A stretch of DNA of 27,387 nt from Bdellovibrionales bacterium (GCA_031370005.1 JANMPT010000103.1:1-27387), one strand, 5' to 3'; shown: positions 12,074 to 24,184, numbered from the stretch's first letter. Numbers and translations: made by a program. Notes: generated by a model not told the origin, from the letters alone.

Positions 12074-12150
12074 GCAGTCGTAGCTCAGCTGGATAGAGTA
12101 CCTGACTACGAATCAGGTGGTCGCAGGTTCGAATCCTGCCGTCTGCACCA
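12074..12150 (+). tRNA. tRNA-Arg(ACG)
   Basis: TAGCTCAGCTGGATAGAG, CCTGA-CTACGAA-TCAGG, GGTTCGAATCC, CCA; 77 nt. Confidence 0.97.
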
Positions 12151-12317
12151 TTTTTCAGCTTTTGCAGTCTATAAATTAATTAGTAATTACAAACACTTAT
12201 CTAATGCCCCAGGATGTGCCGCTAGACTCTCTGACTAGAGTCTAAAAATGAATTGTTTAAGAGGCACTCGTTCACTCTCTTGTCGCGCTCGTCTATAATA
12301 CGGGGAGTGAGGGTTGT

Positions 12318-13259
12318 ATGAAGAAGCATATTTTAAAAATTCTATTGGTTTGTCCTTTATTTTTTATGTCCATAGTCGCCTTGGCAGAGCCTATGTATGG
12401 GGTTTTGATGGTGGTCAAAGGCGCGGTAAGGGTGAGGGCTGCGAATCAGCAAATAAGCGAAGCTAAAGTGGGTAGCAGGGTTCAACAAGGGGACGCGGTA
12501 ATTACCGGAGCAGACTCCCGGGCGAAAATTGTGATGTCTGATCGCAACGTCATTAATGTGAATCCAGATACTGAAATTGTCATTGCTAAATATGAAAACG
12601 ACGCAGGTACTGGAAAAAAAAATGTAGAGCTGAACCTGCTCAAAGGCAAAGTTCGGAATAACGTCGAGCAAAACTATGATGGAGAGAAAAATAAATTTCT
12701 TATTAAAACACCTACGGCCGTTGCAGGAGTTCGCGGAACCCAGTTTTTGGTAGGCTTTAATCCGCAAACCAAGATGACTTCAATTGTAACTTTCAAGGGT
12801 TCGGTTAGCCTAGCCTCCATCGGTATTAATGGGATTTTGATCGGCTCGGCCGTTATAGTTCGAAAAGGTGAAATGACTCAAGCAGCGCCAAATGTAATGC
12901 CAGAGACTCCAAAAGCTCTTCCCAAAGAAGATATAAAAAAAATGGATAATGAATCCACTGCCAGCATGCAGCGCAAAGATGACAAGCCTGCAGAGAGCGA
13001 GCAAAAACGGGAAGCGGCTTCCGAGGGCGGTACTCCTAAAGAGAAAACCCCCTCCGCGCCAGGGGCACCACAAATGTTAGACAGTAAGGACATGGATATG
13101 GGAATAGCAAAGGATATTAAAGATATTCGAGCCCCCTCCATGGTGCCGCAAGCGGGGCCTACACCTCCGCCAAAAAGTATGACGGATTCAATCGTCAGAG
13201 ATGCCGTCCGTGATGTTTTTGGAAAAACAAAAGTGATAGTTCGACCAGTTCCACAATAA
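12318..13259 (+). CDS. secreted FecR-domain protein with Pro/charged low-complexity tail
   Basis: Signal peptide; GDAVITGADSRAKI...LLKGKVR...IKTPTAVAGVRGTQFLV FecR motif. Confidence 0.9.
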   Translation: MKKHILKILLVCPLFFMSIVALAEPMYGVLMVVKGAVRVRAANQQISEAKVGSRVQQGDAVITGADSRAKIVMSDRNVINVNPDTEIVIAKYENDAGTGKKNVELNLLKGKVRNNVEQNYDGEKNKFLIKTPTAVAGVRGTQFLVGFNPQTKMTSIVTFKGSVSLASIGINGILIGSAVIVRKGEMTQAAPNVMPETPKALPKEDIKKMDNESTASMQRKDDKPAESEQKREAASEGGTPKEKTPSAPGAPQMLDSKDMDMGIAKDIKDIRAPSMVPQAGPTPPPKSMTDSIVRDAVRDVFGKTKVIVRPVPQ

Positions 13260-13277
13260 TAGAAAGCTATACCCACA

Positions 13278-15290
13278 ATGAAACGAATTTTTTGGCTTCT
13301 GCTCCCGTCCATGTTTGCTATTACAAGTTTTGCAAAAGAAAATAAAATCTCTCAATCTCAAGCAATCATGGTGGAGCTTCGTGATCCCACGGAAGAGGCT
13401 GAAAAAGTAATGATTCGGGTAAAAGAGCTTGAGTCGGGAAAAGTTACTCAACTAAGCCTTGAAAAAGATCCCTCAAGTTCTCAGGTATGGAGTGGGTACT
13501 TTATAATTCAGTTTTTTAAAGGAGACAGCTCCGCTCGAACTCTCGATTTTCAAGCTTCGACGGGGGCCGCCTTCTTCGCGGATGTTTCACAAAGTAAAGC
13601 TGTTCAAAGGGTGATTTTATTTAAGACTCCCGAAGAGTTGGCTATATATGAAGCCAGTATTTCGGAGGAAACACAAAAAGCTGCAGAGAAACGAATTGCT
13701 ATGCAAATACAAGTGGCTCGCCCTCGCGGGACAGGCACGGCTCCTTTAAACAAGGAAAAGCTTGAGCAACTTGTCCGTCAACAAGGGCAACAACAAGAAG
13801 CCTCGCAGATGGCTCAGGAAGAAATGCAAACCAAAAAGCGCATGGCTCTATTGGTTCAACATGAAAAAATGACGATGGCGCAAAAGAAACTCAAGAGGGA
13901 ACAGGCTGCGGAAATTGTTAAGAAGGCTGACGCTCTCTATGCAGTCCGAAAGTATAAAGAGGCCGAAGGTCAATATGTGCAGGCGATCGAGCTCGATCCT
14001 GAGTCAGAAAGTTATTATTACCGTTATGGAGTGAGTCTTTATAAGATTGGAAATTACAATAAATCATTGGCCATTCTCTCATTGGTCGAAGTTGATTCTG
14101 ATGTGGCTCTAGAGAAAAACTACTATGTAGCCCTGAATCATTTAAAACTCAAAGACTATGACAAGGCACTGAAAGAACTCATAGAACTTCGTGATGAGAA
14201 ATCTCCTGAGCTCAGTCCAATGGCCTCTTTCTTTGCTGGTAATATTGAGTTTCAGCAGCAAAAATTTCCAGCCGCGCGGAAGAGTATGGAGTTTGTGCTT
14301 GATAACTCTAAAAATCCACAACTTGATCGATCTGCTGATGAAATGCTTGAGCAAATTGATCGCATGGAAACGTATTACGAAAGTAAAAAAGAAAGGTACC
14401 GCCTTGTTCTATTCGGCGGGCCTTCCTATGACTCTAATGTATTGAATATTGCAGAAAATAATATTTCGACGGACGTTAAGTCCTTGAGACTATATTATGG
14501 CGCCAGCGCTCTTGCGATTTTACATCGCACACCTACGTCGGATCTTGGCGCGCAACTTTCCTTTTCTGATTATTACAGCATGAACTCAAGTCTGAAGAGC
14601 GATCCGAATTTGCAAATAGCAGATGCTATGGAGTTTGGAATTAGCCTTCCCTACCATCAAGAAATTAAAGTTTCAAAAAGGCAAATGAATTTGGAATTAA
14701 CCCCGAGTTATAAAAATATTTATCTTGCCCCCGCAGGGGGAACCCGTGAGATCGCTGTACGTTCGACGGATCTGATATCTACATTATCGACAGCTATAAA
14801 ACAGGATTTATATCTATCAGGGCGTTTAAATTTCGGCTTAGATGAATCTGTATTGGCCTCTAGCATCGGAGATGATGACTTGTCTGGCACAAGATATGGG
14901 GTGACATTCATTCCAACAAAACTTTTAGACCTCAAAGGAGAAAAAACACTCTCAGGAGAAATCGGATATCTTTTTAATAATGCCAAAGGCATTAACAATC
15001 GCTATCAAAGGGTTGGCATTGCAGGAGTGTATGGATTTCCGACCTTTTATAAAGGGACAGGAAGTTTAAGGGCGGATTTCAGCCTTCAAGACTATAAAGA
15101 TGCGACGACGCCGCGGAAAGACACGAACATGATCTTTACAGGCGCTTACAATAAGGATTTAAGCAAGAAGTGGAATATGCTTTTAAGTCTGCAGTTGACG
15201 AGCGCGAATTCTGAAGTGGATGTTTATAGGTATAATAAATATCTGATCATGGGACTTTTTACCTATACCACGAGCATTCTGCAAAAGTAA
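13278..15290 (+). CDS. secreted TPR protein with probable C-terminal outer-membrane beta-barrel
   Basis: Signal peptide, coiled coil, TPRs (YKEAEGQYVQAIELDP, YYRYGVSLYKIGNYNKS), then YDSNV and alternating beta-strands. Confidence 0.8.
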   Translation: MKRIFWLLLPSMFAITSFAKENKISQSQAIMVELRDPTEEAEKVMIRVKELESGKVTQLSLEKDPSSSQVWSGYFIIQFFKGDSSARTLDFQASTGAAFFADVSQSKAVQRVILFKTPEELAIYEASISEETQKAAEKRIAMQIQVARPRGTGTAPLNKEKLEQLVRQQGQQQEASQMAQEEMQTKKRMALLVQHEKMTMAQKKLKREQAAEIVKKADALYAVRKYKEAEGQYVQAIELDPESESYYYRYGVSLYKIGNYNKSLAILSLVEVDSDVALEKNYYVALNHLKLKDYDKALKELIELRDEKSPELSPMASFFAGNIEFQQQKFPAARKSMEFVLDNSKNPQLDRSADEMLEQIDRMETYYESKKERYRLVLFGGPSYDSNVLNIAENNISTDVKSLRLYYGASALAILHRTPTSDLGAQLSFSDYYSMNSSLKSDPNLQIADAMEFGISLPYHQEIKVSKRQMNLELTPSYKNIYLAPAGGTREIAVRSTDLISTLSTAIKQDLYLSGRLNFGLDESVLASSIGDDDLSGTRYGVTFIPTKLLDLKGEKTLSGEIGYLFNNAKGINNRYQRVGIAGVYGFPTFYKGTGSLRADFSLQDYKDATTPRKDTNMIFTGAYNKDLSKKWNMLLSLQLTSANSEVDVYRYNKYLIMGLFTYTTSILQK

Positions 15291-15301
15291 AAAAAATGTA
15301 A

Positions 15302-16894
15302 CTACGGGCTTACATTGATTATATAAGGATTCGTTTGAAGCCCTGGCCCTGTGATCGAGATCGGGAAGGCGCCCACGGATTTAGGCTTTATATAAAAATC
15401 TGCTGAATGCATACCTACTGCAAAGCTTGATCCTGAAATAAGACTCGTACATGAAGAGTCCGAGTGGAAATCAAAATTTACACTTGCATTCACGAAATTA
15501 AACGGCAGGGCCGCGGCTGCCGTGACGGCCGCACGTGACTCATTGAAAAGCGATGCGCGATATGGTTTTGCATAACAAATCCCGTTTGCTGGGCCCATAT
15601 TATCGCCGCGCACCTCCAGAAATGTCGGTGTTGAGCCGCCAGAGCCCTCGTAAATATTGAGAGCGCTTGCTGCATAACCTGTCATAGTTAAATTCAAACC
15701 AGAAATTCCAGAGCCCACATTGATTTTCCCAAAAACAGGATAGCTAGAGGTAAATGCAGGGATATTGAGCGTTGAAAGAACTGTAGAGCATGATCCATTT
15801 GAGTAGAAATTAAAACCACTACCTGCATTATAATTCATGCTTGTTAATGTTGTTTCACTGATGGCTGCTCCGGAATATGACATCAGTAGAACATTATATG
15901 GATAACACAGACCAGGGAGAATCGAGCGAGGGCCATCAAGGTTTATACCTTTGGTTGTAGCGACGGCATTCGCCAGGTTCATTTGCGCACTTGGCGCTAA
16001 GGAGCTCGATGTGGCAATTAAAGACAATAAAGGAGTCGTAGCAAGTGGTGACTTAAAGACAATCTGTAGGCCATAGGTATTCGGTGGCATGACGATGGAA
16101 GATATCGTTGCCCCGCTTGCTATACAGGTTTGGTAATCAGGATACATTAGAAGTGGATTTGCGTTTACAGTCGCCTGAATAGTGACTGATACGGCCATTG
16201 TGCCTTCACGATTTTGATCATTCACAAGGCGGACTCCAACTGATTGGCAACTATTTTCCACAGTCGCATCGTATGGAAACCAGTCCTTATTGAGTGAAAG
16301 TTTTGTGGGTATAACGTTTCCACTTGAGCCTGGGAAGTCAGGACCCGTGCAGTCAATTCTATTTTGCGAGTTATAAGTCACTGGGATATTAAGTGAAAGC
16401 GTTTCTCCTGGTTTCAGTTCGAGATTGTTTTGTTCACCCAAAAGAAATGGGTCAGAAAGGCTTCCATTTGGAAAACCATAGGTTTTAAAATCTCGGCAAC
16501 TTGCAATGTCGGGAGCATAGAATCCAACAACATAAATGGAGCGCTCTTTTCCAGAGGGGACATCAATACTCATCGTGCCGCCTGCAGGAGCGGCTCCAAC
16601 AAAGAAGCCAACCCTTTTCCCCACAAGGCTTGTATTAATTCCGCCTTTACTGAAGCAGGAGTTCTTGCTCATGTTTTGTTCCGGCCCGCCGGCTGCGATT
16701 AAATAACAATTGATCGGAGTGGCGCCCGTAAAGCCACTTGGATCTGGCGCATTCGCGCCTAACGCCGCAACTGAGCTGCTAATTTTTGGAACTTCCGGTA
16801 GCTGAATTTGAATTTTAGTGCTCTCGTTAATTTTGGGACGATCACAAGCCGCAAAAAGAACAATGCTAACTGTAAAAATTAATATTTTTATCAT
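15302..16894 (-). CDS. large lipoprotein with repeated Cys-containing beta-sandwich-like domains
   Basis: Lipobox LFAAC; S/T/G/P-rich repeats ending FYSNGSCS / FHSDSSCT. Confidence 0.8.
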   Translation of the reverse strand: MIKILIFTVSIVLFAACDRPKINESTKIQIQLPEVPKISSSVAALGANAPDPSGFTGATPINCYLIAAGGPEQNMSKNSCFSKGGINTSLVGKRVGFFVGAAPAGGTMSIDVPSGKERSIYVVGFYAPDIASCRDFKTYGFPNGSLSDPFLLGEQNNLELKPGETLSLNIPVTYNSQNRIDCTGPDFPGSSGNVIPTKLSLNKDWFPYDATVENSCQSVGVRLVNDQNREGTMAVSVTIQATVNANPLLMYPDYQTCIASGATISSIVMPPNTYGLQIVFKSPLATTPLLSLIATSSSLAPSAQMNLANAVATTKGINLDGPRSILPGLCYPYNVLLMSYSGAAISETTLTSMNYNAGSGFNFYSNGSCSTVLSTLNIPAFTSSYPVFGKINVGSGISGLNLTMTGYAASALNIYEGSGGSTPTFLEVRGDNMGPANGICYAKPYRASLFNESRAAVTAAAALPFNFVNASVNFDFHSDSSCTSLISGSSFAVGMHSADFYIKPKSVGAFPISITGPGLQTNPYIINVSP

Positions 16895-16933
16895 GCTTAT
16901 CTTTTCGGATTAAATCGAATATCTATATAGTAT

Positions 16934-19576
16934 TTATTTTGTTTTCATTATGAAGACGCCATCCCAGTCATTTGGCGGGGCTGTATCAAGATAATCTTTG
17001 CAGCGCTCAATATAAAGTTTCGAAACAGGATCGTTTTGAGACGCAGAAAATGATTTCTTGAAAATATCTAGAGCTTCTTTAAAGCATCTTTTATGATAAA
17101 GCTCGTAGGCTTGGGCGAAGTATTTTAAATTTCCAGCGCTTTTATCCTTGGGCTCTCCCTCGCAAATAAGCTCGTATATTCTAACGGGTTCGAATTTACC
17201 TTTAACACGAACACGATCAATTTCGCGAGCTGTAAATATCTCTTTGACTTCTTCGTAGGTGAATTGACTGATAATGATGCGTGTCCCATATTCCTTATTA
17301 ATCCCCTCAAGTCGAGCCGCCAAATTAACTGAGTCCCCCATGACAGTATAATTTTGCACAATATTAGACCCCATGTTGCCAACACTCATGGCCCCAGTAT
17401 TAATTCCAATTCCAATATCAATGTGGGGAAGTCCCTGGTCAGCGAATTCTTTTTGTAGCTCTTTGAGCTTGTCTAGATTTTCTAGTGCGCAACGGCAGGC
17501 CTCTTTTGCATGGGCAGGGCTTTTTATTGGCGCCCCAAAAAAAGCCATTATTGCATCGCCAATATATTTATCTAAAGTGCCATTGTTTTTGAAAATCAGT
17601 TCTGTCATTGGCGTGAGATACAGATTTAAAACCCGCGAAAGTTCTTCGGGTGCAAGTTTTTCAGAAATGGTGGTAAAGCCGCGTACGTCAGAAAAGAAAA
17701 CCGTCATATTTTCTTTTCGTCCGCCTAGTTTTAGATTCTCAACGTCTTTGAGAAGTTCATCCACAATTGCTGGAGAAACATACTTAGAAAATGTCAATTT
17801 GAGTTGGCGTTTTTTCTTTTCTTCGGTGAAGTAGCGATAAACTTGGATAGAAAAAAAGCAAAATAGAATTAACATATATGGCAGGGAAGTATGAACCATT
17901 ACTTTTCGAATTAAAAAAAGCCATAAATCGAATCCAAGACCAACTGTCAAGATGCTAGCAAAAATTCCAAATGAAATCAGTGAATCCACATATGCCCATG
18001 CCGCAGTCAAGGCAATCCCTAGAATTAAAAGAATCCAGGGCATAGCACTGGTTTCACTGCCCCACGAAGTTAGAAAGTTTTTATCTAGTAAATTTGCGAG
18101 CATAGTCAGGTGCAGTTCCGGCCCAGGGTAATTTGCATCGACAGGGGTGTTGCGAAGATCATATAGGCCTACTGCCGTGGCTCCGATGATCACACTGCGG
18201 TTTTTGAAGAACTTCTTTCTGTCGAATTCTTTTTCTTGGATATGAATTTGTTTTCCCTCGAGTGTTTTAATTCTTTTTTGCACCAGGATAGTTGATTTTT
18301 CGTTAAAAAGTTCTTTGGCCGAAACATAGGGCAGAGACATTTGCTGTCCATAGAAATTAATCAGAAGCTCTCCTGACTTGTCCACAGGAAGTGTCGCTAT
18401 TTTCGTTTCAGGGCGGGTTTCCATATTATAGATATTAAACTCGTCAATTTTTTTCTGACCTTGGGAGTCCGCTCCCATTTTAACTTCCGCGCGATAGGGA
18501 CCCGAAAGTAAATAGCTTTGCAAAGCCAGAGATGGAATAAAGCTGGAGCCGAGCTTATTTCCGGAGCGATAATACATTGGATAGCGACGGACATAGCCGT
18601 CAGAGTCAAGCAATGCAATGAAGCTAGCGGTAAAAGCAGCTGGCTTTTGTATGACAGGAATATTTGGAGTCCATTCGCCATATTGAGGAACTGGATGGCT
18701 TTTATAGGCACCTTTAATATTTTGATTGAAATCCTTGAATGAAAGACTGCTGAGTTGCTTATTGCTAGCGAGTAAATTTAAATACATAGGTTGTACTTTT
18801 TCAGCAATTCCAGCATCTAGAAAAATATCTTTTTCAGTCAACCAGGTTTTGCAGTATTCAAAAAGCGCTTGAGATTTTCTTGATAACAAATTGTTTTTTT
18901 GAAAAATTGAAAGCTCATTGACAGATTTTTTACCTACAGACGCAAGAGTGTCTTCCTGAACCTGTTGTTGAACATTATCAAAAAATACTCCGAACAGGGG
19001 GGGCCAGTTCAAATCATCAAAAGCATTGCCGGCCTCGTCGATTGCGAATCTGGGATTAATCTTCGTTAACTGGTCTCCGCCGTTTTTAATAAAAGCTTCG
19101 GCAACACAAAGGTCCTGGTAGGGTTTATAGGGATAAAGATTTTCACTGAAGGTGCCAAGTATTACCTTGTCTTTGTTTTTATCGATCATTTCCCCGAATT
19201 TACTATCGGTATCTAGAGAGCCTCGTTCTGGCTCAGAAAAAATCACGTCAAAGGCGACGGAACTTGCGCCATCGTCAATCAAGCTTTGCGTCATCTCATT
19301 AACGAGCTGCCGGCTCCAGGGCCAGCGCCCAATTTCCCGCAGCGAGGCGTCGTCTAAGGCGATCAAAGCTACGGGAGCCTCAGATATTTCAGGTTTGCGC
19401 AGCTTGTACTTGAAATCATTGAAACGAAAATCAAGAATTTCCATGGCCTCTAATAATGGGCTATCGCTCCGTTGAATTGGCGGAGTCTCCTTGTATTCGT
19501 AATACTTAAGCGAAAAGGCAAAAAAACTGAGAGTGATGGTAAGCCCAATTAGTAGGCTTATTTTTTCTGTTTTCAT
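16934..19576 (-). CDS. CHASE2-domain class III adenylate cyclase
   Basis: LDDASLREIGRWPWSR, FDVIFSEP, DSDGYVRR, PGPELH (CHASE2); 3 TM helices; FSDVRGFT, DKYIGDAIMA, YTVMGDSVNLAARLE (ATP-specifying Lys/Thr); C-terminal WDGVF. Confidence 0.95.
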   Translation of the reverse strand: MKTEKISLLIGLTITLSFFAFSLKYYEYKETPPIQRSDSPLLEAMEILDFRFNDFKYKLRKPEISEAPVALIALDDASLREIGRWPWSRQLVNEMTQSLIDDGASSVAFDVIFSEPERGSLDTDSKFGEMIDKNKDKVILGTFSENLYPYKPYQDLCVAEAFIKNGGDQLTKINPRFAIDEAGNAFDDLNWPPLFGVFFDNVQQQVQEDTLASVGKKSVNELSIFQKNNLLSRKSQALFEYCKTWLTEKDIFLDAGIAEKVQPMYLNLLASNKQLSSLSFKDFNQNIKGAYKSHPVPQYGEWTPNIPVIQKPAAFTASFIALLDSDGYVRRYPMYYRSGNKLGSSFIPSLALQSYLLSGPYRAEVKMGADSQGQKKIDEFNIYNMETRPETKIATLPVDKSGELLINFYGQQMSLPYVSAKELFNEKSTILVQKRIKTLEGKQIHIQEKEFDRKKFFKNRSVIIGATAVGLYDLRNTPVDANYPGPELHLTMLANLLDKNFLTSWGSETSAMPWILLILGIALTAAWAYVDSLISFGIFASILTVGLGFDLWLFLIRKVMVHTSLPYMLILFCFFSIQVYRYFTEEKKKRQLKLTFSKYVSPAIVDELLKDVENLKLGGRKENMTVFFSDVRGFTTISEKLAPEELSRVLNLYLTPMTELIFKNNGTLDKYIGDAIMAFFGAPIKSPAHAKEACRCALENLDKLKELQKEFADQGLPHIDIGIGINTGAMSVGNMGSNIVQNYTVMGDSVNLAARLEGINKEYGTRIIISQFTYEEVKEIFTAREIDRVRVKGKFEPVRIYELICEGEPKDKSAGNLKYFAQAYELYHKRCFKEALDIFKKSFSASQNDPVSKLYIERCKDYLDTAPPNDWDGVFIMKTK

Positions 19577-19669
19577 GATCTACGTGTCGGCAAGTTTAGT
19601 GCAAATCCGAGCCTAGATAAAAAGCAGGTCTGGATGGACTTTAGCCAGGGAGTTTGCTATTTTTTAGCC

Positions 19670-19819
19670 ATGGGAAAATACTTTGTACTTAAAATTATGG
19701 TGATGGTCCTTAGCCTACTTTTTGTCGTTTATGCGATGCGCGAATTGCAGCATCCTACGGGCACCCTGAGGGCAAATAACAGCCCAATTTCAATACTTTT
19801 TAGCAAAGACAACAGATAG
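19670..19819 (+). CDS. small single-TM hypothetical protein
   Basis: MGKYFVLKIMVMVLSLLFVVYAMRE...; short ORF filling the gap before tRNA-Asn. Confidence 0.45.
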   Translation: MGKYFVLKIMVMVLSLLFVVYAMRELQHPTGTLRANNSPISILFSKDNR

Positions 19820-19871
19820 AAAAAATTTGACTTTAATGGTCACCAGCCATAATTTGGCCATTCCAACATGT

Positions 19872-19947
19872 TCAGAAGTAGCTCAGTCGGTAGAGCAAGC
19901 GGCTGTTAACCGCTGGGTCGGGGGTTCGAGTCCCTCCTTCTGAGCCA
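19872..19947 (+). tRNA. tRNA-Asn(GTT)
   Basis: TCAGAAG/CTTCTGA acceptor stem, AGCGG-CTGTTAA-CCGCT, GGTTCGAGTCC, CCA; 76 nt. Confidence 0.97.
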
Positions 19948-20214
19948 ATTATCTTTTCCCGCAGGATTTTCCTCTGCGGTGAACAGACAGTGGCTTTCGG
20001 TGTCTAAAACTTTAGAGACTCTCCATTTTATTTCGACTCTGTTGTCGTCGAAAACAATAACTCGTTCGAGGATTTGTCGTAAAAAGTTTCTTGCTCTAAC
20101 TGGGTCTCCTTCTCGAATTTTCTTCAGCACATCAATAAGTTGATTTTTATAAGGCTCTAAATCTGTTTTGCATTTTTTAATCTTCTCTAGCTCTTGAGTT
20201 GCATCGTAAGCGGC
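19906..20214 (-). pseudogene. C-terminal remnant of a large serine recombinase reading into tRNA-Asn
   Basis: Start-less frame from 20214: coiled coil, then FLRQILERVIVFDDNRVEIKW (typical LSR tail), ending NWLRRRDSNPRPSG* antisense to the tRNA. Confidence 0.7.
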
Positions 20215-20247
20215 TTAACAGCCCCAGTGTTGACTTTGTTTATTTAA

Positions 20248-20568
20248 GTAATCGAGTTTCTTGAGTTTGCAAAGCAGCTAACGAAATGCGAGCTTTCTGG
20301 GAAAAAGGCATGCGTAAAGCTTAGAAAAAAGATTTGGCTGGTTAGAGATGAATTGAGCTCGTTCGGTCGTTTATTAAAAGACGAAAATACTGTTTCTATT
20401 TTAAATGAGGGTCTGCTGTTAACCAATGATGTCGAACAAACATTAAGGGAGTTTGATGACGGGCCCAAAAAAAATAAACGTCTTAACGAGTTAAGTCAAA
20501 AAGCCAAAGATACCTACTTGAAGATCAGAAAATCCGATGTCTTGAATAAAGAGTGCAAACCTAAATAA
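20248..20568 (+). pseudogene. start-less C-terminal fragment of an unknown helical protein
   Basis: Frame open from 20248 (VIEFLEFAKQ...) through the tracked 71-aa ORF. Confidence 0.4.
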
Positions 20569-20581
20569 AAAAGATCACTAT

Positions 20582-21484
20582 TCACGAGCCAATAGGATAG
20601 CAACTTAGCAAGAGCAAAATTTGCGGTAAAAATGGCGATAGGACAGCCGAATAGTCTGCAGCAAGACCAACTAATTTGTTTAAAGTCGTTACGTACGATT
20701 CACTTGAATTTTCGATGATACTTTTATCTAACAAACTGATCAACTTTTCGTTCGAAACGGTGTCGAGCGCAGCGATTGCTTTAATTTCCTTTAGTAATGC
20801 AACTGCATCTGCATCAGTCGTTTGTTGATTCGACTGATTAATCGAACCAATGTTGATGTGGCCACTGTTGTTTTGAAAGTTGTTGGTATTTTGCATTATT
20901 ATCTCCATTTTTATTTTCGTGTATTTATATGCGTAAGCGCGCGGCTGATTTCCATATTCGGGCAAAAAGGTTGGGTCTGAAAGAAGATAAAGATTATTAT
21001 TCAGAACAACTTTTTCGTTTGAATCTGAAAACATTGCTTCGACGTAGATGAAATCATTATCTTTATCACCTAAGCTGGTTTCGCCATTTTCAGTTTTAAG
21101 TTCTTGCGTCATGCCAGTACGTCTTCGCCAAAAATCATCTTGCGATCTCGGCACGTTTTTAACGAGCTCATAATATAATTCTTCTTCGACTTCTTCCAAG
21201 GTAAAGATTTCTTCACAAAATTCACAAAATAAATCTTCGTCCAAAATTTCTTTGCACTCTCTGTTGGCGCATGTTGCCAGTGAAAGTGGTTTTAAAAATC
21301 CAGCGTCTTGAAAATTTGACAAGGCTTCGGTGATTCCCGACCAAGAAGATCTCAATCCGCGAAAAACATTTAGATTAATTTTTTCTCCGATAGCCTTTGT
21401 ACTTAGAAAGTCACCAGCTTTTGAAAGTGCTTCAACCTCGGAAGGATCGTCCTTAGATATTTCCGAGAACAAGTTTGATGACAT
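20582..21484 (-). CDS. hypothetical protein with 4-Cys Zn-ribbon, N/Q-rich motif and helical C-terminus
   Basis: CANREC...CEFC; MQNTNNFQNNSGHINIGSINQSNQQ; ATG 21484 overlaps the upstream gene by 32 nt. Confidence 0.75.
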   Translation of the reverse strand: MSSNLFSEISKDDPSEVEALSKAGDFLSTKAIGEKINLNVFRGLRSSWSGITEALSNFQDAGFLKPLSLATCANRECKEILDEDLFCEFCEEIFTLEEVEEELYYELVKNVPRSQDDFWRRRTGMTQELKTENGETSLGDKDNDFIYVEAMFSDSNEKVVLNNNLYLLSDPTFLPEYGNQPRAYAYKYTKIKMEIIMQNTNNFQNNSGHINIGSINQSNQQTTDADAVALLKEIKAIAALDTVSNEKLISLLDKSIIENSSESYVTTLNKLVGLAADYSAVLSPFLPQILLLLSCYPIGS

Positions 21485-22481
21485 CACGAAACACCCCCTC
21501 GTCAAGATCGCTCATAATGCCCAAGCGTTCGTCCTCATAAACCATAAAACGAAACTGTTTTGCGCCCTCTGAGTCGTAGTAAAAATCGCATTCAAAGTAG
21601 TCGCCCTTGCGCGAATGATTTTCGATAGGCTTCATGATTCTGTTTGCAAAAACTGGAACCCCTTTTTTTGGACTTTTGATTTTTATCGTGTCTCCAGTCG
21701 AGTAACGAACACCAAGTGATCTGCTGACTGATTTTTCCTCCTCCATCAGATTTTTTATTGCGGATCCGATGGAGATGATTTCGAATCCTTTTTGGCCTAT
21801 GAGTTGGTGAACCTCATTCAGAATTGTTCGAAGTTCTTTCGCGAAAGTTTGCCCCCGCTGTATTGCTGGAACAGAAACAAATCCTTTTCCCGTCTTCAGA
21901 TTTAGTTCAAAGACATAAAGCTTTCTAGAGCGCTTTTCTTCAAAAATGCGTGAAATGAGTTTTGTTGTTGGATTCTTAGAGTCGAGTTCTGACCGTCGCA
22001 CTAGCGTGTTTGATGGCGCAATAAATTTTATACGCAATAGAGCGCCTTCGATTTCGATGTTATTCGCTTTCAAGATACTAGGTAATCGAAACGGTGGGCT
22101 ACTTTTGATAAGATCCGATGAACCTTTAAGTTTTAAAGCCTCAAGAAGATCTTTTTGTTCCAAGAGGGCTCGCGTTTGCTCGGGAGCTCCTTTTAAAAAG
22201 TACATGTGTCGGCGACTGCAAGGTTCATGTGTATTAACAAACTCCTGAACTTCGGATAAATTGAAAATCTTTTCATTGAGGGAGCTTTGAACTAAGTGGC
22301 GGAGGTCTTCTTTGATTCCAGTATACGGAAGCCCGTGATCCTTCAAAAAAGGTCGAACTAAATCGAGGTTGAAATCTAAAAATCTTTCGACCAATGCGAC
22401 TTCGTCAGTGAGTTCTGGGCGTATGGGCCGTTTGGTTAATATTTGTTCAGGCTGCGTTTCTTTATCTACGTTGATATGCAT
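21453..22481 (-). CDS. hypothetical protein with N-terminal SAP-like DNA-binding motif
   Basis: AGGAGGAG RBS before ATG 22481; LVRPFLKDHGLPYTGIKEDLRHLV fits the SAP pattern. Confidence 0.75.
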   Translation of the reverse strand: MHINVDKETQPEQILTKRPIRPELTDEVALVERFLDFNLDLVRPFLKDHGLPYTGIKEDLRHLVQSSLNEKIFNLSEVQEFVNTHEPCSRRHMYFLKGAPEQTRALLEQKDLLEALKLKGSSDLIKSSPPFRLPSILKANNIEIEGALLRIKFIAPSNTLVRRSELDSKNPTTKLISRIFEEKRSRKLYVFELNLKTGKGFVSVPAIQRGQTFAKELRTILNEVHQLIGQKGFEIISIGSAIKNLMEEEKSVSRSLGVRYSTGDTIKIKSPKKGVPVFANRIMKPIENHSRKGDYFECDFYYDSEGAKQFRFMVYEDERLGIMSDLDEGVFRDVIKLVLGNI

Positions 22482-22574
22482 GATGCATCTCCTCCTTGTG
22501 TTTAAAACCACCAGGACATCCTTTGTCCTGACACAGTAAGTAGATACTACACGCCAAAATTGTGCAAGCCCGCG

Positions 22575-23174
22575 TTATTGTGGCGCGTCTAAACCCTGAG
22601 CATTTGAAGAAAGAGCACGCGAAACAGATCGGATCGACGTACTAAGTTTTTCGGCAATCTGTCGAGCAGTCAGTCCGTCTTTTCTTAATTCTAAAATCTG
22701 CAAATCATCGCGTTCTTTGGGGCGACCAACAGCCTCACCAAGAAGTTTCGCAGTTGAAAGAGCGATATGAACTCGTTCACCTTTAATAACGAACTTTGAA
22801 GACTTTACTGCATGATCAATCGCTTTTAAAAACAGACCGCCGTTATTTTCAGAGTCGATATGATCTGACGCTGAAATAAATCTCACGCCCATCTCAGTGA
22901 GTTGATTTATAAAATCAACACTTTCTGAAATCGATGCCGAAGCGGACCCAAGACGATCCAATCGCCAAATTAAAAACACGTTGCAAGAGCCGCTGGCAAA
23001 AATCTTTTTGAAGTTTTCGACCTTGTTCAAATCTTCCATAGAGTTTTGATCTTCAAGTGTCATTACTAGCTCTAAGTCATTTCTTTTAATGAAATCGTTA
23101 AGACCTAAAAGTTGTTCACTCTTAGTGGTTCCATAATCGCTGTATCTTACGTAGACCAAGCATTTATTTTTCAT
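22575..23174 (-). CDS. resolvase/invertase-family serine recombinase
   Basis: YVRYS catalytic motif, WRLDRLG, GVRFIS, VGRP and C-terminal HTH (TARQIAEKLSTSIRSVSRAL). Confidence 0.9.
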   Translation of the reverse strand: MKNKCLVYVRYSDYGTTKSEQLLGLNDFIKRNDLELVMTLEDQNSMEDLNKVENFKKIFASGSCNVFLIWRLDRLGSASASISESVDFINQLTEMGVRFISASDHIDSENNGGLFLKAIDHAVKSSKFVIKGERVHIALSTAKLLGEAVGRPKERDDLQILELRKDGLTARQIAEKLSTSIRSVSRALSSNAQGLDAPQ

Positions 23175-23197
23175 TCTTCGTTAAACTCGCCTTGTAA

Positions 23198-23229
23198 TAT
23201 AACTTTAAAGTTATAACATATAAGTTATA
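23198..23229. promoter_or_regulatory. two overlapping TATAAC-N6-GTTATA operators between divergent resolvase and XRE
   Basis: Copies at 23198-23215 (perfect palindrome) and 23212-23229. Confidence 0.7.
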
Positions 23230-23253
23230 TACTGATAAATACGAAGTCAATAG

Positions 23254-23514
23254 GTGAAGTTGGGAAAACCGAAAACGAAAATTTTAGTTGAAAAATTTCT
23301 TGGAGAATTCAAGCTTTCTGACGTGAGCAGAGAGACGGGAATCTTATATCCTCAGCTTCACCGCTATACTAAAGCTGGTGCAAATCCGACGCTTTTAGTT
23401 CTTGAGCAAATAGCCATGGGATTATCAAAACTTCGTGGAGAACCTATTTCACCGTGTGATCTAATTGATAATCGAAAACCTAAAGCCAAGCCTGGTAAAA
23501 CTAGGCGCGGTTGA
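23254..23514 (+). CDS. XRE/Cro-like HTH regulator
   Basis: LSDVSRETGILYPQLHRY...NPTLLVLEQIA...PCDLI. Confidence 0.8.
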   Translation: MKLGKPKTKILVEKFLGEFKLSDVSRETGILYPQLHRYTKAGANPTLLVLEQIAMGLSKLRGEPISPCDLIDNRKPKAKPGKTRRG

Positions 23515-23905
23515 GGTAGTTGAAAACGGTTTTCAGTTGCCATCTTGCGCCTGAATTTCTACAAGAAATTTCAAGTTCATTCATCGCATTTACTATTTTA
23601 CGATATGACAAACCTTGATCTCGAAGTTGTTTCAACTTTTGAATAACCTTAGCTTCACCTGGGTGGGCATCGGATTCGCCAAAGCGTTGGGCCACCTTTA
23701 GATCTCTAGAACGTAGCGGCACACCATAGCCCAAAAGGTACTTTTTCACTGTCTTGTTGGAGGAAGAAGTTTCTGCTGCAATTCTAGCTACGGAGTGGCC
23801 TTCAACTACGTATTTTTGACGGAGGAGATCTTCGTTTCTAAATGACTTTATGCTAGCAAAAGGTAATATAAACGAATGTAGGGCTGGAGGAAACGGTTCC
23901 TGCGT
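23501..23905 (-). pseudogene. start-less HTH + recombinase-domain-like ORF abutting the displaced att
   Basis: Frame open from 23905: ...NEDLLRQKYVVEGHSVARIAAETSSSNKTVKKYL...GVPLR (HTH), then EAKVIQKLKQLRDQGLSYRKIVNAMN...RWQLKTVFNYL. Confidence 0.7.
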
Positions 23906-23928
23906 TTAGGAATGGTCCTGAGCCAATT

Positions 23929-24039
23929 TTTAGTGGGCGCAACCACTTCCTCTGTACCGGTGAACACTTCAGAAAATTTCCGAACTTCCCCACTCGGGGT
24001 AATCTCAATTTTTTCAATCACTTGTAATCTTGCTGACAA
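23929..24039 (-). pseudogene. second (older) large serine recombinase C-terminal remnant
   Basis: LQVIEKIEITPSGEV...VFTGTEEVVAPTKNWLR, homologous to LFTAEENPAGKDNWLR next to the tRNA. Confidence 0.6.
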
Positions 24040-24088: not shown

Positions 24089-24184
24089 AACTCAGCGTCG
24101 ATTCCACATCGTGCAACGCTGTTGAAAATAGCAAAGGCATTGGGCATGAGCCAGGTCGAAATCACAACCGAGTGGAGTCGATAA
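24089..24184 (+). pseudogene. C-terminal half of an XRE HTH protein
   Basis: Manual translation NSASIPHRATLLKIAKALGMSQVEITTEWSR*. Confidence 0.55.

What the first reader, a model, noticed from the sequence alone, without database searches (positions are those of the whole stretch)
19906..23928. Possible excision-dependent fusion of a tRNA-Asn serine integrase with an HTH/recombinase-like domain
Seen: the integrase tail crosses the att and ends W-L-R-R-R-D-S-N-P-R-P-S-G* inside the tRNA antisense. The far att copy reads TGG CTC AG/GAC CAT TCC, i.e. the tRNA end minus 7 nt (AAGGAGG). Restoring those 7 nt gives WLRRR-D-H-S, exactly in frame with the start-less 134-codon ORF 23905-23501 (HTH + recombinase-like domain); only one TAA (23908-23906) intervenes. 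Inference: in the intact element, circularisation (attP) appended a ~140-aa DNA-binding extension to the integrase, a recombination-state switch for directionality. Att sites inside integrase or repressor genes are known in other elements (e.g. SSV-type tyrosine integrases); I do not recognise this serine-integrase version.
Basis: partly seen in the sequence, partly recalled or inferred. Interest (0 to 1): 0.8.

Follow-up and report, generated by a model that had tools for sequence, protein, structure and literature searches.

The report
Serine integrase gene split by integration
This is the decayed remnant of a small mobile island whose relatives carry a serine integrase gene that runs across the island's own attachment site, so that inserting into a tRNA gene cuts a 150-residue DNA-binding module off the enzyme and excision would put it back.

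Summary
The tRNA-Asn end and the far site share an exact 11-nt core (2 copies, 0.05 expected). The "integrase" is only a 102-codon C-terminal remnant. No 7-nt restoration or TAA removal is needed. The frame through the far core reads NWLRTIPK and then meets a 1-nt deletion, which contigs from three other runs do not have. Upstream of that core lies a second integrase-tail remnant, so the site is a fossil attP-like junction of a tandem array.

In relatives, all 11 same-contig integrase/module pairs join at their shared core into one open frame of 678-764 aa. Non-cognate pairings do so in 38 of 110 cases. A twelfth pair from another family, at tRNA-His, also joins in frame. Uninterrupted fused genes exist, and the module evolves under purifying selection.

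The module is two helix-turn-helix bundles; the second resembles the start of the integrase's own recombinase domain.

A directionality role is untested. Integrase genes overlapping attL are in print for Dehalococcoides DsiB, and for the tyrosine integrases of Mx8 and SSV. This scan noted short-tail versions on other DNA. This is a new variant of a known kind.

The parts
19872..19947 (+). tRNA-Asn(gtt), the integration target. Its last 8 bases belong to the att core.
   Evidence: ARAGORN.
19940..19950 (.). attL core CTGAGCCAATT: the tRNA 3' end plus 3 bases of flank.
   Evidence: Exact repeat, 2 copies in the window against 0.05 expected.
19906..20214 (-). C-terminal remnant (102 codons plus stop) of large serine recombinase 1. 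It crosses attL and ends 13 codons inside the tRNA antisense.
   Evidence: Translation. BLASTP to residues 448-527 of a 527-aa relative, E 2e-17. tblastn with 5 full-length relatives hits only 20205-19912.
20215..20581 (.). Stretch where the recombinase body should lie. It is closed in all three minus frames and has no recombinase similarity. A relative's contig (X6) diverges from the window at 20252.
20582..22511 (-). Two island genes of unknown function: 307 aa (20582-21505) and 352 aa (21453-22511).
   Evidence: ORFs. No family found in Pfam, NCBIfam or PHROGs at the cut-offs used.
22575..23174 (-). Small serine recombinase: Resolvase N-terminal domain plus C-terminal HTH, 199 aa.
   Evidence: Pfam PF00239 E 1.2e-7 and HTH_23 E 7e-6. 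phrog_125 'DNA invertase' E 3e-14. Small resolvases also sit in related elements at L042:5904-6539 and L028:17317-17895, and in L032 and L038.
23197..23230 (.). 17+17-nt inverted repeat between the divergent small-recombinase and XRE genes. Possibly an operator.
   Evidence: the repeat finder pair I14. Function not tested.
23254..23514 (+). Small XRE/Cro-type HTH gene, 86 aa, convergent with the module frame.
   Evidence: ORF. Weak Pfam HTH_26, E 0.027, below cut-off. An XRE gene sits at the same relative place in L042.
23501..23905 (-). Start-less 134-codon frame: the detachable C-terminal module (HTH1, flexible linker, HTH2 resembling the start of the recombinase domain).
   Evidence: AlphaFold model with two 3-helix bundles, pLDDT 72.9. 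Residues 76-134 align to residues 171-246 of a serine integrase (9dxd_A), Z 7.0, rmsd 1.7 A over 59 residues.
23903..23904 (.). Frameshift site. The window lacks one base that relatives' contigs have here.
   Evidence: read-laying table 4: 'put in behind 23903: G' in X6, X2 and X3, and 0 of depth 10 in X1. P0002 reads ...TIPKPQEPF....
23905..23928 (-). Head of the module in its true frame (NWLRTIPK), read through the att core.
   Evidence: P0002.
23918..23928 (.). Second copy of the att core. Here it is an attP-like junction between island 1 and the stump of a second island.
   Evidence: Flanked by the recombinase-tail remnant.
23929..24039 (-). Remnant of the tail of a second large serine recombinase. 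It is in frame with NWLRTIPK across the core.
   Evidence: ORF 24039-23848. BLASTP to residues 490-528 of a 538-aa relative, 56% identity, E 1e-11. tblastn 24024-23914.

Best explanation
The window holds the wreck of a ~4-kb integrative island at tRNA-Asn, plus the stump of a second island inserted in tandem.

Architecture. The island belongs to a large family of elements that insert at the CCA end of tRNA genes (Asn, Asp, His, Leu seen) by means of a large serine recombinase (LSR). In this family the attachment site attP lies inside the LSR gene. It sits in the linker between the canonical enzyme (catalytic domain, recombinase domain, coiled-coil region) and a ~150-residue C-terminal module made of two helix-turn-helix bundles.
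- On the free circle the gene is whole, about 670-760 codons.
- Integration cuts it at the core. The LSR at attL then ends after 7-50 codons read off the tRNA antisense. The module is left, mostly without a start codon, at attR at the far end of the island.
- In tandem arrays the internal junction recreates the attP arrangement.

This window. The LSR body is deleted. The module frame carries a 1-nt deletion. The far att copy is such an internal junction, with a second LSR tail still in frame across the core.

Shown versus inferred. The split-gene architecture and the decayed state of this copy are shown. It is inferred that the long form, made only from the excised state, is the integration enzyme, with the extra bipartite DNA-binding module helping to bind or synapse attP/attB. 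It is also inferred that loss of the module on integration changes activity or directionality, as the changed C-terminus does for Mx8 integrase. I put the architecture at about 0.9 and a real functional difference between the two forms at about 0.4.
For: (1) Window anatomy.

(2) The frame through the core is intact in relatives. P0002 reads across it. Contigs of X6, X2 and X3 (two studies) carry the extra base.

(3) Same gene order in an intact relative, G062:C24: module, XRE on the opposite strand, small resolvase, then a 591-aa LSR ending in tRNA-Asn.

(4) All 11 same-contig, same-strand module/LSR pairs offered join at their shared 7-24-nt core into open frames of 678-764 aa.
- All three reading frames of the tRNA antisense are used (6, 3 and 2 pairs) and two tRNAs (Asn, Asp).
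- Cognate joins are open and in frame in 11 of 11 cases, non-cognate in 38 of 110.
- 26 of 100000 permutations reach 11.

(5) A twelfth pair from another family, at tRNA-His, gives 672 aa in frame.

(6) Partner LSRs all have Resolvase plus Recombinase domains. Their tails end inside tRNA-Asn, -Asp and -Leu.

(7) Natural uninterrupted fusions exist:
- L028:2696-4282, 529-aa frame.
- L066, 753 aa, and L068, 793 aa.
- L059, 744 aa, with HTH plus a second Recombinase stretch.
- P0045, P0113 and P0142, 671-737 aa.

(8) The module evolves as a protein. dN/dS is 0.06-0.41 in the 12 of 13 pairs at >=60% identity with unsaturated dS, and 0.10-0.48 in 10 further pairs.

(9) In the 27 copies examined, no start codon was found before or at the beginning of HTH1 in the window copy, L004, L008 and L029a. 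In the 11 further copies, none was found in the first 50 codons of L069a, L069d, L072 and L073.

(10) The module is widespread: 44 of 182 family genomes and 192 of 401 sampled phylum genomes.
Against: - No circular form, empty site or joint was seen. Read laying found no joints. Two candidate contigs have no terminal overlap.
- No protein or RNA evidence exists for a long form.
- In elements of the KMAQ-type frame, the core itself supplies an in-frame ATG, and gene callers start stand-alone proteins there (P0022, P0024, P0031, P0032). Separate translation of the module in the integrated state is therefore not excluded.
- Two LSR-module adjacencies are out of frame: L025 and L067. I read them as junctions between unlike elements. 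For L025 both cognate partners were found and are in frame. For L067 they were not sought.
- In one array at tRNA-Pro, 3 of 4 modules have a TAA directly before the core.
- Arrays of modules occur with no LSR nearby (L069, L070), which a pure 'C-terminal domain' view does not explain.
- For G086 two LSRs were candidates and only the nearer one is in frame.
- The pairs are related elements, so they are not fully independent.
- The list was cut (46 matches not shown), so further pairs may exist that I did not test.
Confidence: 0.75

Rival explanations
1. The split is real but functionally neutral. attP happens to lie in a tolerant linker, the module is a dispensable accessory domain, and the short form does everything the long form does.
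For: The short forms keep the Resolvase and Recombinase domains and are as long (538-641 aa) as ordinary LSRs. Linker sequences are variable and use all three frames. McMurdie et al. also list a trivial explanation for dsiB.
Against: The module is kept open and under purifying selection (dN/dS 0.06-0.48), and in frame in 12 of 12 cognate pairs. It is also kept in LSRs whose gene is not split (L059, L060). That argues it does something for the enzyme.
Confidence: 0.15
2. The HTH/recombinase-like frame is an independent small gene (a regulator or an excision factor) that merely abuts attR. The in-frame continuity with the LSR is incidental.
For: About two thirds of the top 150 profile hits are called as stand-alone proteins of 120-270 aa. 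An ATG is supplied by the core in one frame class. Modules occur without LSRs in arrays. A stop precedes the core in 3 of 4 copies of one array. Out-of-frame adjacencies exist.
Against: Cognate joins are in frame 11 of 11 against 35% for non-cognate joins. Many copies have no start before the first HTH. Uninterrupted LSR-module genes exist. LSR-tail-plus-module fragments P0039 and P0139 exist.
Confidence: 0.1
3. One reading: the far att copy is the tRNA end minus 7 nt, and restoring AAGGAGG and removing one TAA recreates the fusion.
For: The arithmetic is right: with 7 bases added the frame would read WLRRRDHS and meet the 134-codon frame after one TAA.
Against: Relatives show the true frame (NWLRTIPK-P-QEPFPP) with a single extra base and no stop. 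The bases left of the core are element DNA, as at every other attR examined.
Confidence: 0.02
4. Chance: the 11-nt repeat and the open frame are coincidences in a patch of decayed recombinase fragments.
For: Short repeats are common. The window copy is broken.
Against: 0.05 copies expected against 2 seen. The same layout recurs at four tRNA species in many genomes.
Confidence: 0.01

Closest known systems
Dehalococcoides ssrA-specific genomic islands: serine recombinase DsiB with small recombinase DsiA (McMurdie et al. 2011, BMC Genomics 12:287, PMC3146451; passages read)
   Same: An LSR gene sits next to attL on the reverse strand and 'always overlaps attL at its 3' end', with its stop outside the island. 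The islands are tandem, and there is a second, small PinR-like serine recombinase in the module. The authors speculate that the gene is complete only on the circle or next to an adjacent island that carries the 3' fragment.
   Different: The target there is ssrA, not tRNA genes. No conserved 3' fragment was identified, and the authors thought the overlapped part unlikely to be functional. Here the detached part is a defined, conserved ~150-aa two-HTH module, shown in frame in 12 cognate pairs. Homology between these LSRs and DsiB was not tested here.
Myxophage Mx8 integrase IntP/IntX, a tyrosine recombinase (review PMC6070905, passages read; primary papers Tojo 1996 and Magrini 1999 seen only as references)
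   Same: attP lies inside the int coding sequence. Integration into a tRNA gene gives int a new 3' end. The changed protein is still active but with altered properties.
   Different: It is a tyrosine recombinase, not a serine recombinase. The part exchanged is a C-terminal stretch, not a separate bipartite DNA-binding module. Mx8 has experimental support; this family has none.
SSV1-type (fusellovirus) integrases with attP inside int (named in the Islander paper PMC4383910, passages read; details recalled)
   Same: The integrase gene is partitioned by its own integration.
   Different: These are archaeal tyrosine recombinases, and the gene is split into two non-functional parts (recalled). Here the catalytic enzyme stays whole.
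Integration-dependent immunity of mycobacteriophage BPs and relatives (abstract of PMC4557955 seen in a search listing)
   Same: attP lies inside a gene, so integration changes the C-terminus of its product and thereby its behaviour. This is a recombination-state switch.
   Different: The gene cut there is the repressor, not the integrase.
Canonical large serine integrases (SPbeta, Bxb1, phiC31, LI/A118)
   Same: They share the Resolvase and Recombinase domains. The module's second bundle superposes on the first part of their recombinase domain: 9dxd_A Z 7.0, 9iu2_A Z 5.7, 9if5_B Z 5.6, 4kis_A Z 4.5 (middling scores).
   Different: Their attP lies outside the gene (recalled), and directionality is set by a separate factor (abstracts). 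They lack a C-terminal two-HTH module. The zinc-ribbon Pfam domain was not detected in the split LSRs at E <= 1e-3. The Islander authors wrote in 2014 that serine integrases were not known to target tRNA genes.
Engineered integrase-RDF fusions (Olorunniji et al. 2017, PMC5737554; title and abstract in listing only)
   Same: An extra polypeptide fused to an LSR changes which att pair it recombines.
   Different: These are man-made, and the fused part is a known directionality factor that drives excision. Here the fusion exists only in the excised state, where integration is the available reaction.

Membership tests
Large serine recombinase (LSR) family | N-terminal serine-recombinase catalytic domain (Pfam Resolvase PF00239) | tested here: not met
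   For the window copy, only the last ~80-100 residues survive and no Resolvase match lies at 19906-20581. It is met in all 10 partner LSRs scanned and in L042.
Large serine recombinase (LSR) family | Recombinase domain PF07508 after the catalytic domain | tested here: met
   Met in relatives: all partner LSRs. Absent from the window remnant. The window's module frame holds only a partial second copy, positions 3-50 of 102.
Large serine recombinase (LSR) family | Zinc-ribbon domain (PF13408) with embedded coiled coil | tested here: inconclusive
   Detected in L058, L059 and L061, but not in the split LSRs at E <= 1e-3. The coiled coil was not analysed.
Elements with attP inside their own integrase gene (Mx8, SSV1, DsiB type) | The integrase frame crosses the att core at attL and ends in target-derived sequence | tested here: met
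   Window. Relatives at tRNA-Asn, -Asp and -Leu and at tRNA-His.
Elements with attP inside their own integrase gene (Mx8, SSV1, DsiB type) | The 3' part of the gene lies at the other end of the integrated element, in frame after an in-silico join | tested here: met
   11 of 11 family pairs plus 1 outside the family. In the window it is in frame across the core and then broken by a 1-nt deletion.
Elements with attP inside their own integrase gene (Mx8, SSV1, DsiB type) | The two forms differ in activity | not testable with these tools
   Needs recombination assays.
DsiB/DsiA-type integration module | A small PinR-like serine recombinase accompanies the LSR | tested here: inconclusive
   Present in the window and inside the G062 and G077 elements. 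tblastn also finds one in L032 (G014) and L038 (G180:C12). It was not seen in the other stretches, of which only the ends were fetched.
DsiB/DsiA-type integration module | Sequence relationship of the LSR to DsiB; target ssrA | not tested
   No DsiB sequence was compared. The targets here are tRNA genes. NCBIfam shows only sub-threshold likeness to CcrB and XisF.
Recombination directionality factors | A small protein that binds the LSR and switches it to attL x attR | not tested
   No binding prediction or assay was run. The module's fold is that of DNA-binding HTH domains.

The most novel reading that the evidence does not exclude
The detachable two-HTH module is a built-in directionality device. 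The long enzyme, which only a free circle can encode, is the integration form. The short enzyme, which only an integrated copy can encode, is excision-competent or inert. The element's recombination state therefore writes the enzyme's own specificity without a separate directionality factor. The arrays of module-bounded, integrase-less islets at tRNA genes would then be cassettes serviced in trans, a serine-recombinase counterpart of cis-mobilisable elements.
Probability: 0.2. Interest if true: 0.85.

Novelty: new variant of a known kind. Interest (0 to 1): 0.62.

Why it matters
- Mechanism. Large serine integrases are prized because they are strictly one-way until a separate factor reverses them. 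An integrase family whose C-terminal DNA-binding module is attached or removed by the recombination event itself would be a different, self-contained way to couple enzyme form to element state. A two-plasmid assay can test it directly.
- Enzyme mining. Pipelines that harvest serine integrases from integrated elements would collect only the truncated form of such enzymes, and the far-end module would be annotated as an orphan small gene. For this family the integration-state enzyme can be deduced only by joining attL and attR.
- Target range. It adds many serine-recombinase islands that target tRNA genes. The Islander authors wrote in 2014 that this pairing was not known.
- Abundance. The module occurs in about half of the sampled genomes of the phylum, 192 of 401.

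Tried and rejected
- The word-index search for longer relatives of the 134-aa frame found none. The exhaustive profile search did find fused forms.
- The listing of cluster members gave no names.
- Circularity: contigs G176:C32 and G373:C277, which carry fused genes, have no terminal overlap and no tRNA.
- Read laying showed no joints. All four runs are kept as contigs, which cannot show rare excised forms.
- Empty-site comparison: in the genus only G081 holds the GNAT gene that flanks the island, and its neighbour differs there. The right boundary could not be fixed that way. A third core-like TGAGCCA at about 24146-24152 is only a 7-mer and is left as a possibility.
- A census of tRNA-3'-end matches next to 27 module copies gave 22 hits of 7-9 nt. 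With 36 tRNA ends and ~250-nt search spaces, my own rough estimate is about 0.5 chance 7-mers per locus, so I do not use that count.
- The automatic choice of core failed twice: a spurious 9-mer in G171 and in L073. Both were redone with the core anchored on the tRNA CCA antisense. This is a choice made after seeing the first result.
- Foldseek against PDB gave no match at E <= 0.001. The best were paired domains of Pax6/Pax5 and the Tc3 transposase bipartite domain, E 0.05-0.09.
- NCBIfam and PHROGs gave only sub-threshold likenesses of the module: IS21 transposase N-terminus, Cbp1, and a phrog named HNH endonuclease.
- Four literature searches for a serine integrase gene spanning attP, and passages of Durrant 2022 and of PMC12884075, turned up no description other than McMurdie 2011.
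- No complex prediction was run.

Full report
**What is in the window**

tRNA-Asn(gtt) lies at 19872-19947 on the plus strand. On the minus strand a frame runs from 20214 across the tRNA's 3' end and stops 13 codons inside the tRNA antisense (...NWLRRRDSNPRPSG*).
- The frame is only 102 codons from stop to stop. The three minus frames upstream (20215-20581) are closed.
- It has no Pfam domain.
- It aligns with the last 80 residues (448-527) of a 527-aa large serine recombinase (LSR) from a related genome, E 2e-17.
- Five full-length relatives match the window only with their tails.

The 11 bases CTGAGCCAATT (19940-19950: the last 8 bases of the tRNA plus 3 of flank) recur exactly at 23918-23928. 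That is 2 copies against 0.05 expected, and no shuffle out of 100 gave two.

Between the two copies, all on the minus strand except one gene, lie:
- two genes of unknown function (20582-21505 and 21453-22511);
- a small serine recombinase with a C-terminal HTH (22575-23174);
- an oppositely oriented XRE-type gene (23254-23514);
- the 134-codon frame 23905-23504.

**The far att copy and the broken frame**

The 134-codon frame has no ATG, GTG or TTG before codon 52. It holds a weak HTH and then a match to positions 3-50 of the 102-position Pfam Recombinase model, E 9e-5.

The data say otherwise.
- A 177-aa homologue, P0002 (57% identical overall), reads ...NWLRTIPK-P-QEPFPPALHSF... without interruption.
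- In the window, NWLRTIPK is one frame (23928-23905) and QEPFPPALHSF... is the next.
- Public-run contigs settle the matter. Contigs of X6, X2 and X3 (two studies, 90-99% like the island's interior) all have one extra G behind 23903. The probable source run X1 (depth 10) does not.

The window copy therefore has a 1-nt deletion, and the TAA at 23908-23906 is simply out of frame.

Upstream of the far core (23929-24039, minus strand) lies a second recombinase tail. It is 56% identical to residues 490-528 of a 538-aa LSR, E 1e-11. It is in frame with NWLRTIPK.

The far 'att copy' is thus not a plain attR. It is an attP-like junction inside a tandem array: the stump of island 2's integrase tail, the core, then island 1's module.

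**Relatives: the same layout, intact**

The 134-aa frame has homologues in 44 of 182 genomes of the family. A profile of 17 of them finds matches in 192 of 401 sampled genomes of the phylum. It finds 12878 proteins (2570 at E <= 1e-10) in the 1.84-billion-protein library.

In G062:C24 the gene order mirrors the window: module frame, XRE on the other strand, small resolvase, unknown genes. It then has a complete 591-aa LSR (Resolvase plus Recombinase) whose last 25 codons are tRNA-Asn antisense.

Many LSRs of the family end inside tRNA genes on the opposite strand:
- tRNA-Asn: L043, L045, L046, L047, L049, L054
- tRNA-Asp: L048, L050, L052
- tRNA-Leu: L053, L057

**The decisive test**

From I took every case in which a module and an LSR lie on one contig and one strand with the LSR downstream. 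This gave 11 pairs in 10 genomes. G086 had a second candidate LSR.

In a script I joined each LSR at the core it shares with the site upstream of its module.
- Ten pairs gave continuous frames of 678-764 aa with automatically found cores of 8-24 nt.
- For the eleventh (G171) the automatic core was spurious. Anchored on the tRNA-end 7-mer, it gives 689 aa in frame.
- The second G086 LSR, which sits next to the tRNA, is out of frame with the module. The nearer one is in frame over a 15-nt core, as expected for two elements in tandem.
- In G123 an LSR lies directly upstream of a module and out of frame. Each of the two has its own partner 18 and 34 kb away, and both of those joins are in frame.

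The three possible frames of the tRNA antisense are all in use (6, 3 and 2 pairs). What is conserved is therefore continuity, not a peptide.

As a control I joined every LSR to every module. Cognate joins were open and in frame in 11 of 11 cases, non-cognate in 38 of 110. Only 26 of 100000 random pairings reached 11.

A twelfth pair from another family of the phylum, at tRNA-His, gives 672 aa in frame when anchored on the tRNA end.

The pairs are related elements and are not fully independent. The list was truncated, with 46 matches unseen.

**Is the module really part of the enzyme?**

Uninterrupted genes say yes:
- a 529-aa frame in G077 (an N-terminally truncated LSR running straight into the module);
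- 753-aa and 793-aa genes in two other families;
- a 744-aa LSR with an HTH and a second Recombinase stretch at its end (L059);
- three metagenomic proteins of 671-737 aa in which the profile matches only the last ~130 residues.

The module evolves under purifying selection. dN/dS is 0.06-0.41 in the 12 of 13 pairs at >=60% identity whose dS was not saturated. It is 0.10-0.48 in 10 further pairs, including copies within arrays.

In the copies examined, no ATG, GTG or TTG was found before or at the start of the first HTH in eight of them:
- of the 27 copies: the window copy, L004, L008 and L029a;
- of the 11 copies (first 50 codons scanned): L069a, L069d, L072 and L073.

**What the module is**

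The AlphaFold model (17-sequence alignment, mean pLDDT 72.9) shows two three-helix bundles (residues 25-59 and 82-132) joined by a floppy linker.
- Foldseek finds nothing at E <= 0.001. Its best rows are bipartite 'paired'-type DNA-binding domains: Pax6, Pax5 and Tc3 transposase, E 0.05-0.09.
- The exhaustive aligner puts residues 76-134 on residues 171-246 of a serine integrase bound to attL (9dxd_A, Z 7.0, rmsd 1.7 A, 59 residues). Bxb1, phiC31 and LI integrases follow at Z 4.5-5.7.
- These scores are middling by the tool's own notes. They agree with the Pfam match.

I read the module as a bipartite DNA-binding unit whose second half is a copy of the first subdomain of the recombinase domain.

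**How it most likely works**

Shown:
- attP lies in the linker between the canonical LSR and the module.
- Integration separates them.
- Tandem junctions bring them together again.
- The window copy is dead: the LSR body is deleted and the module is frameshifted.

Inferred:
- The long form is the enzyme of the excised state, where the only reaction available is integration. The extra DNA-binding unit probably helps site binding or synapsis.
- The short form of the integrated state differs in activity or direction, as reported for Mx8 integrase after its C-terminus is exchanged (review passages).

I give the architecture about 0.9 and a real functional difference about 0.4.

Points against, or left open:
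- No circle, empty site or long protein has been seen.
- One frame class supplies an ATG in the core, so the module might also be made alone.
- One array at tRNA-Pro has a stop just before the core in 3 of 4 copies.
- Arrays of modules occur without any LSR.

**Comparison with what is known**

The nearest description in print is McMurdie et al. 2011 on Dehalococcoides ssrA islands (passages read). There the ~540-aa serine recombinase gene dsiB always overlaps attL, islands are tandem, and a small PinR-like recombinase accompanies it. The authors suggest dsiB may be complete only on the circle or beside an island carrying 'the requisite 3' gene fragment'. They identified no such fragment and doubted that the overlapped part was functional.

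Mx8 and SSV integrases (tyrosine family) extend across attP. Mycobacteriophage BPs cuts its repressor gene in the same way (abstract in listing).

Four searches and two further papers gave no other account of a serine integrase gene spanning attP.

Earlier notes of this scan describe LSR genes spanning attP in Saccharibacteria and other Patescibacteria, with exchanged tails of 24-50 residues. So the layout has been seen before by the scan, on other DNA.

New here:
- the size and nature of the exchanged part, a folded two-HTH DNA-binding module;
- its breadth in this phylum;
- a controlled test of frame continuity.

**Verdict**

This is a new variant of a known kind. The window itself holds only a fossil of it.

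Noticed in passing
G000:C105:31594-33391 (same genome, another contig): An apparently intact 577-aa LSR ends inside tRNA-Leu(cag) on the opposite strand. No module partner was found in this genome with the 134-aa query.
   Followed up: partly
L002 = G000:C87:1-1623: A second module copy of the same genome is cut by the contig end (46% identical over 41 residues). It is in the KNGG frame class, with a core like a tRNA-Ser end. Beside it lies what looks like a HigB/HigA-type toxin-antitoxin pair (246-536, 549-833); that name is my reading of the sequences, no family search was run.
   Followed up: partly
L069 (G470:C1:146000-165999) and L070 (G318:C14:628000-647999): Arrays of 3-4 diverged module frames, 2-9 kb apart, separated by cargo-like genes (HipA kinase, AcrB-type efflux pump, AraC and TetR regulators) with no LSR detected. 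In L069 each module is preceded by a conserved ~15-codon recombinase-tail-like remnant, and 3 of 4 have a TAA right before the core. These may be integrase-less cassettes mobilised in trans.
   Followed up: partly
proteins P0003-P0011 and others: About 45 of the top 150 profile hits are 260-840-aa proteins made of 5-14 tandem copies of the module's first HTH. P0003 (648 aa, 10 copies) ends in a cysteine/histidine-rich tail that looks like an HNH nuclease motif to me (no search run). phrog_8446, named HNH endonuclease, also matches the module.
   Followed up: no
window 12150-19872: tRNA-Arg and tRNA-Asn are 7.7 kb apart here, with four genes between them including a CHASE2 adenylate/guanylate cyclase (16934-19576). 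In four relatives the same two tRNA genes are 0.3-1.7 kb apart (L045, L046, L035, L054). This may be another insertion.
   Followed up: no
window 20252 and 23925: Contigs of run X6 follow the island's interior at about 95-97% identity but leave the window at 20252, where the window's recombinase is broken off, and at 23925, inside the att core. That organism probably has a different, perhaps intact, left end and a different right neighbour.
   Followed up: no
window 20582-22511: The two largest island genes (307 and 352 aa) have no match in Pfam, NCBIfam or PHROGs at the cut-offs used, and no tblastn match in the 40 related stretches held.
   Followed up: partly
window 24146-24152: TGAGCCA, the tRNA end's last 7 bases, occurs once more 220 nt right of the far core. 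It could mark the end of the second island's stump, but a 7-mer is weak.
   Followed up: no
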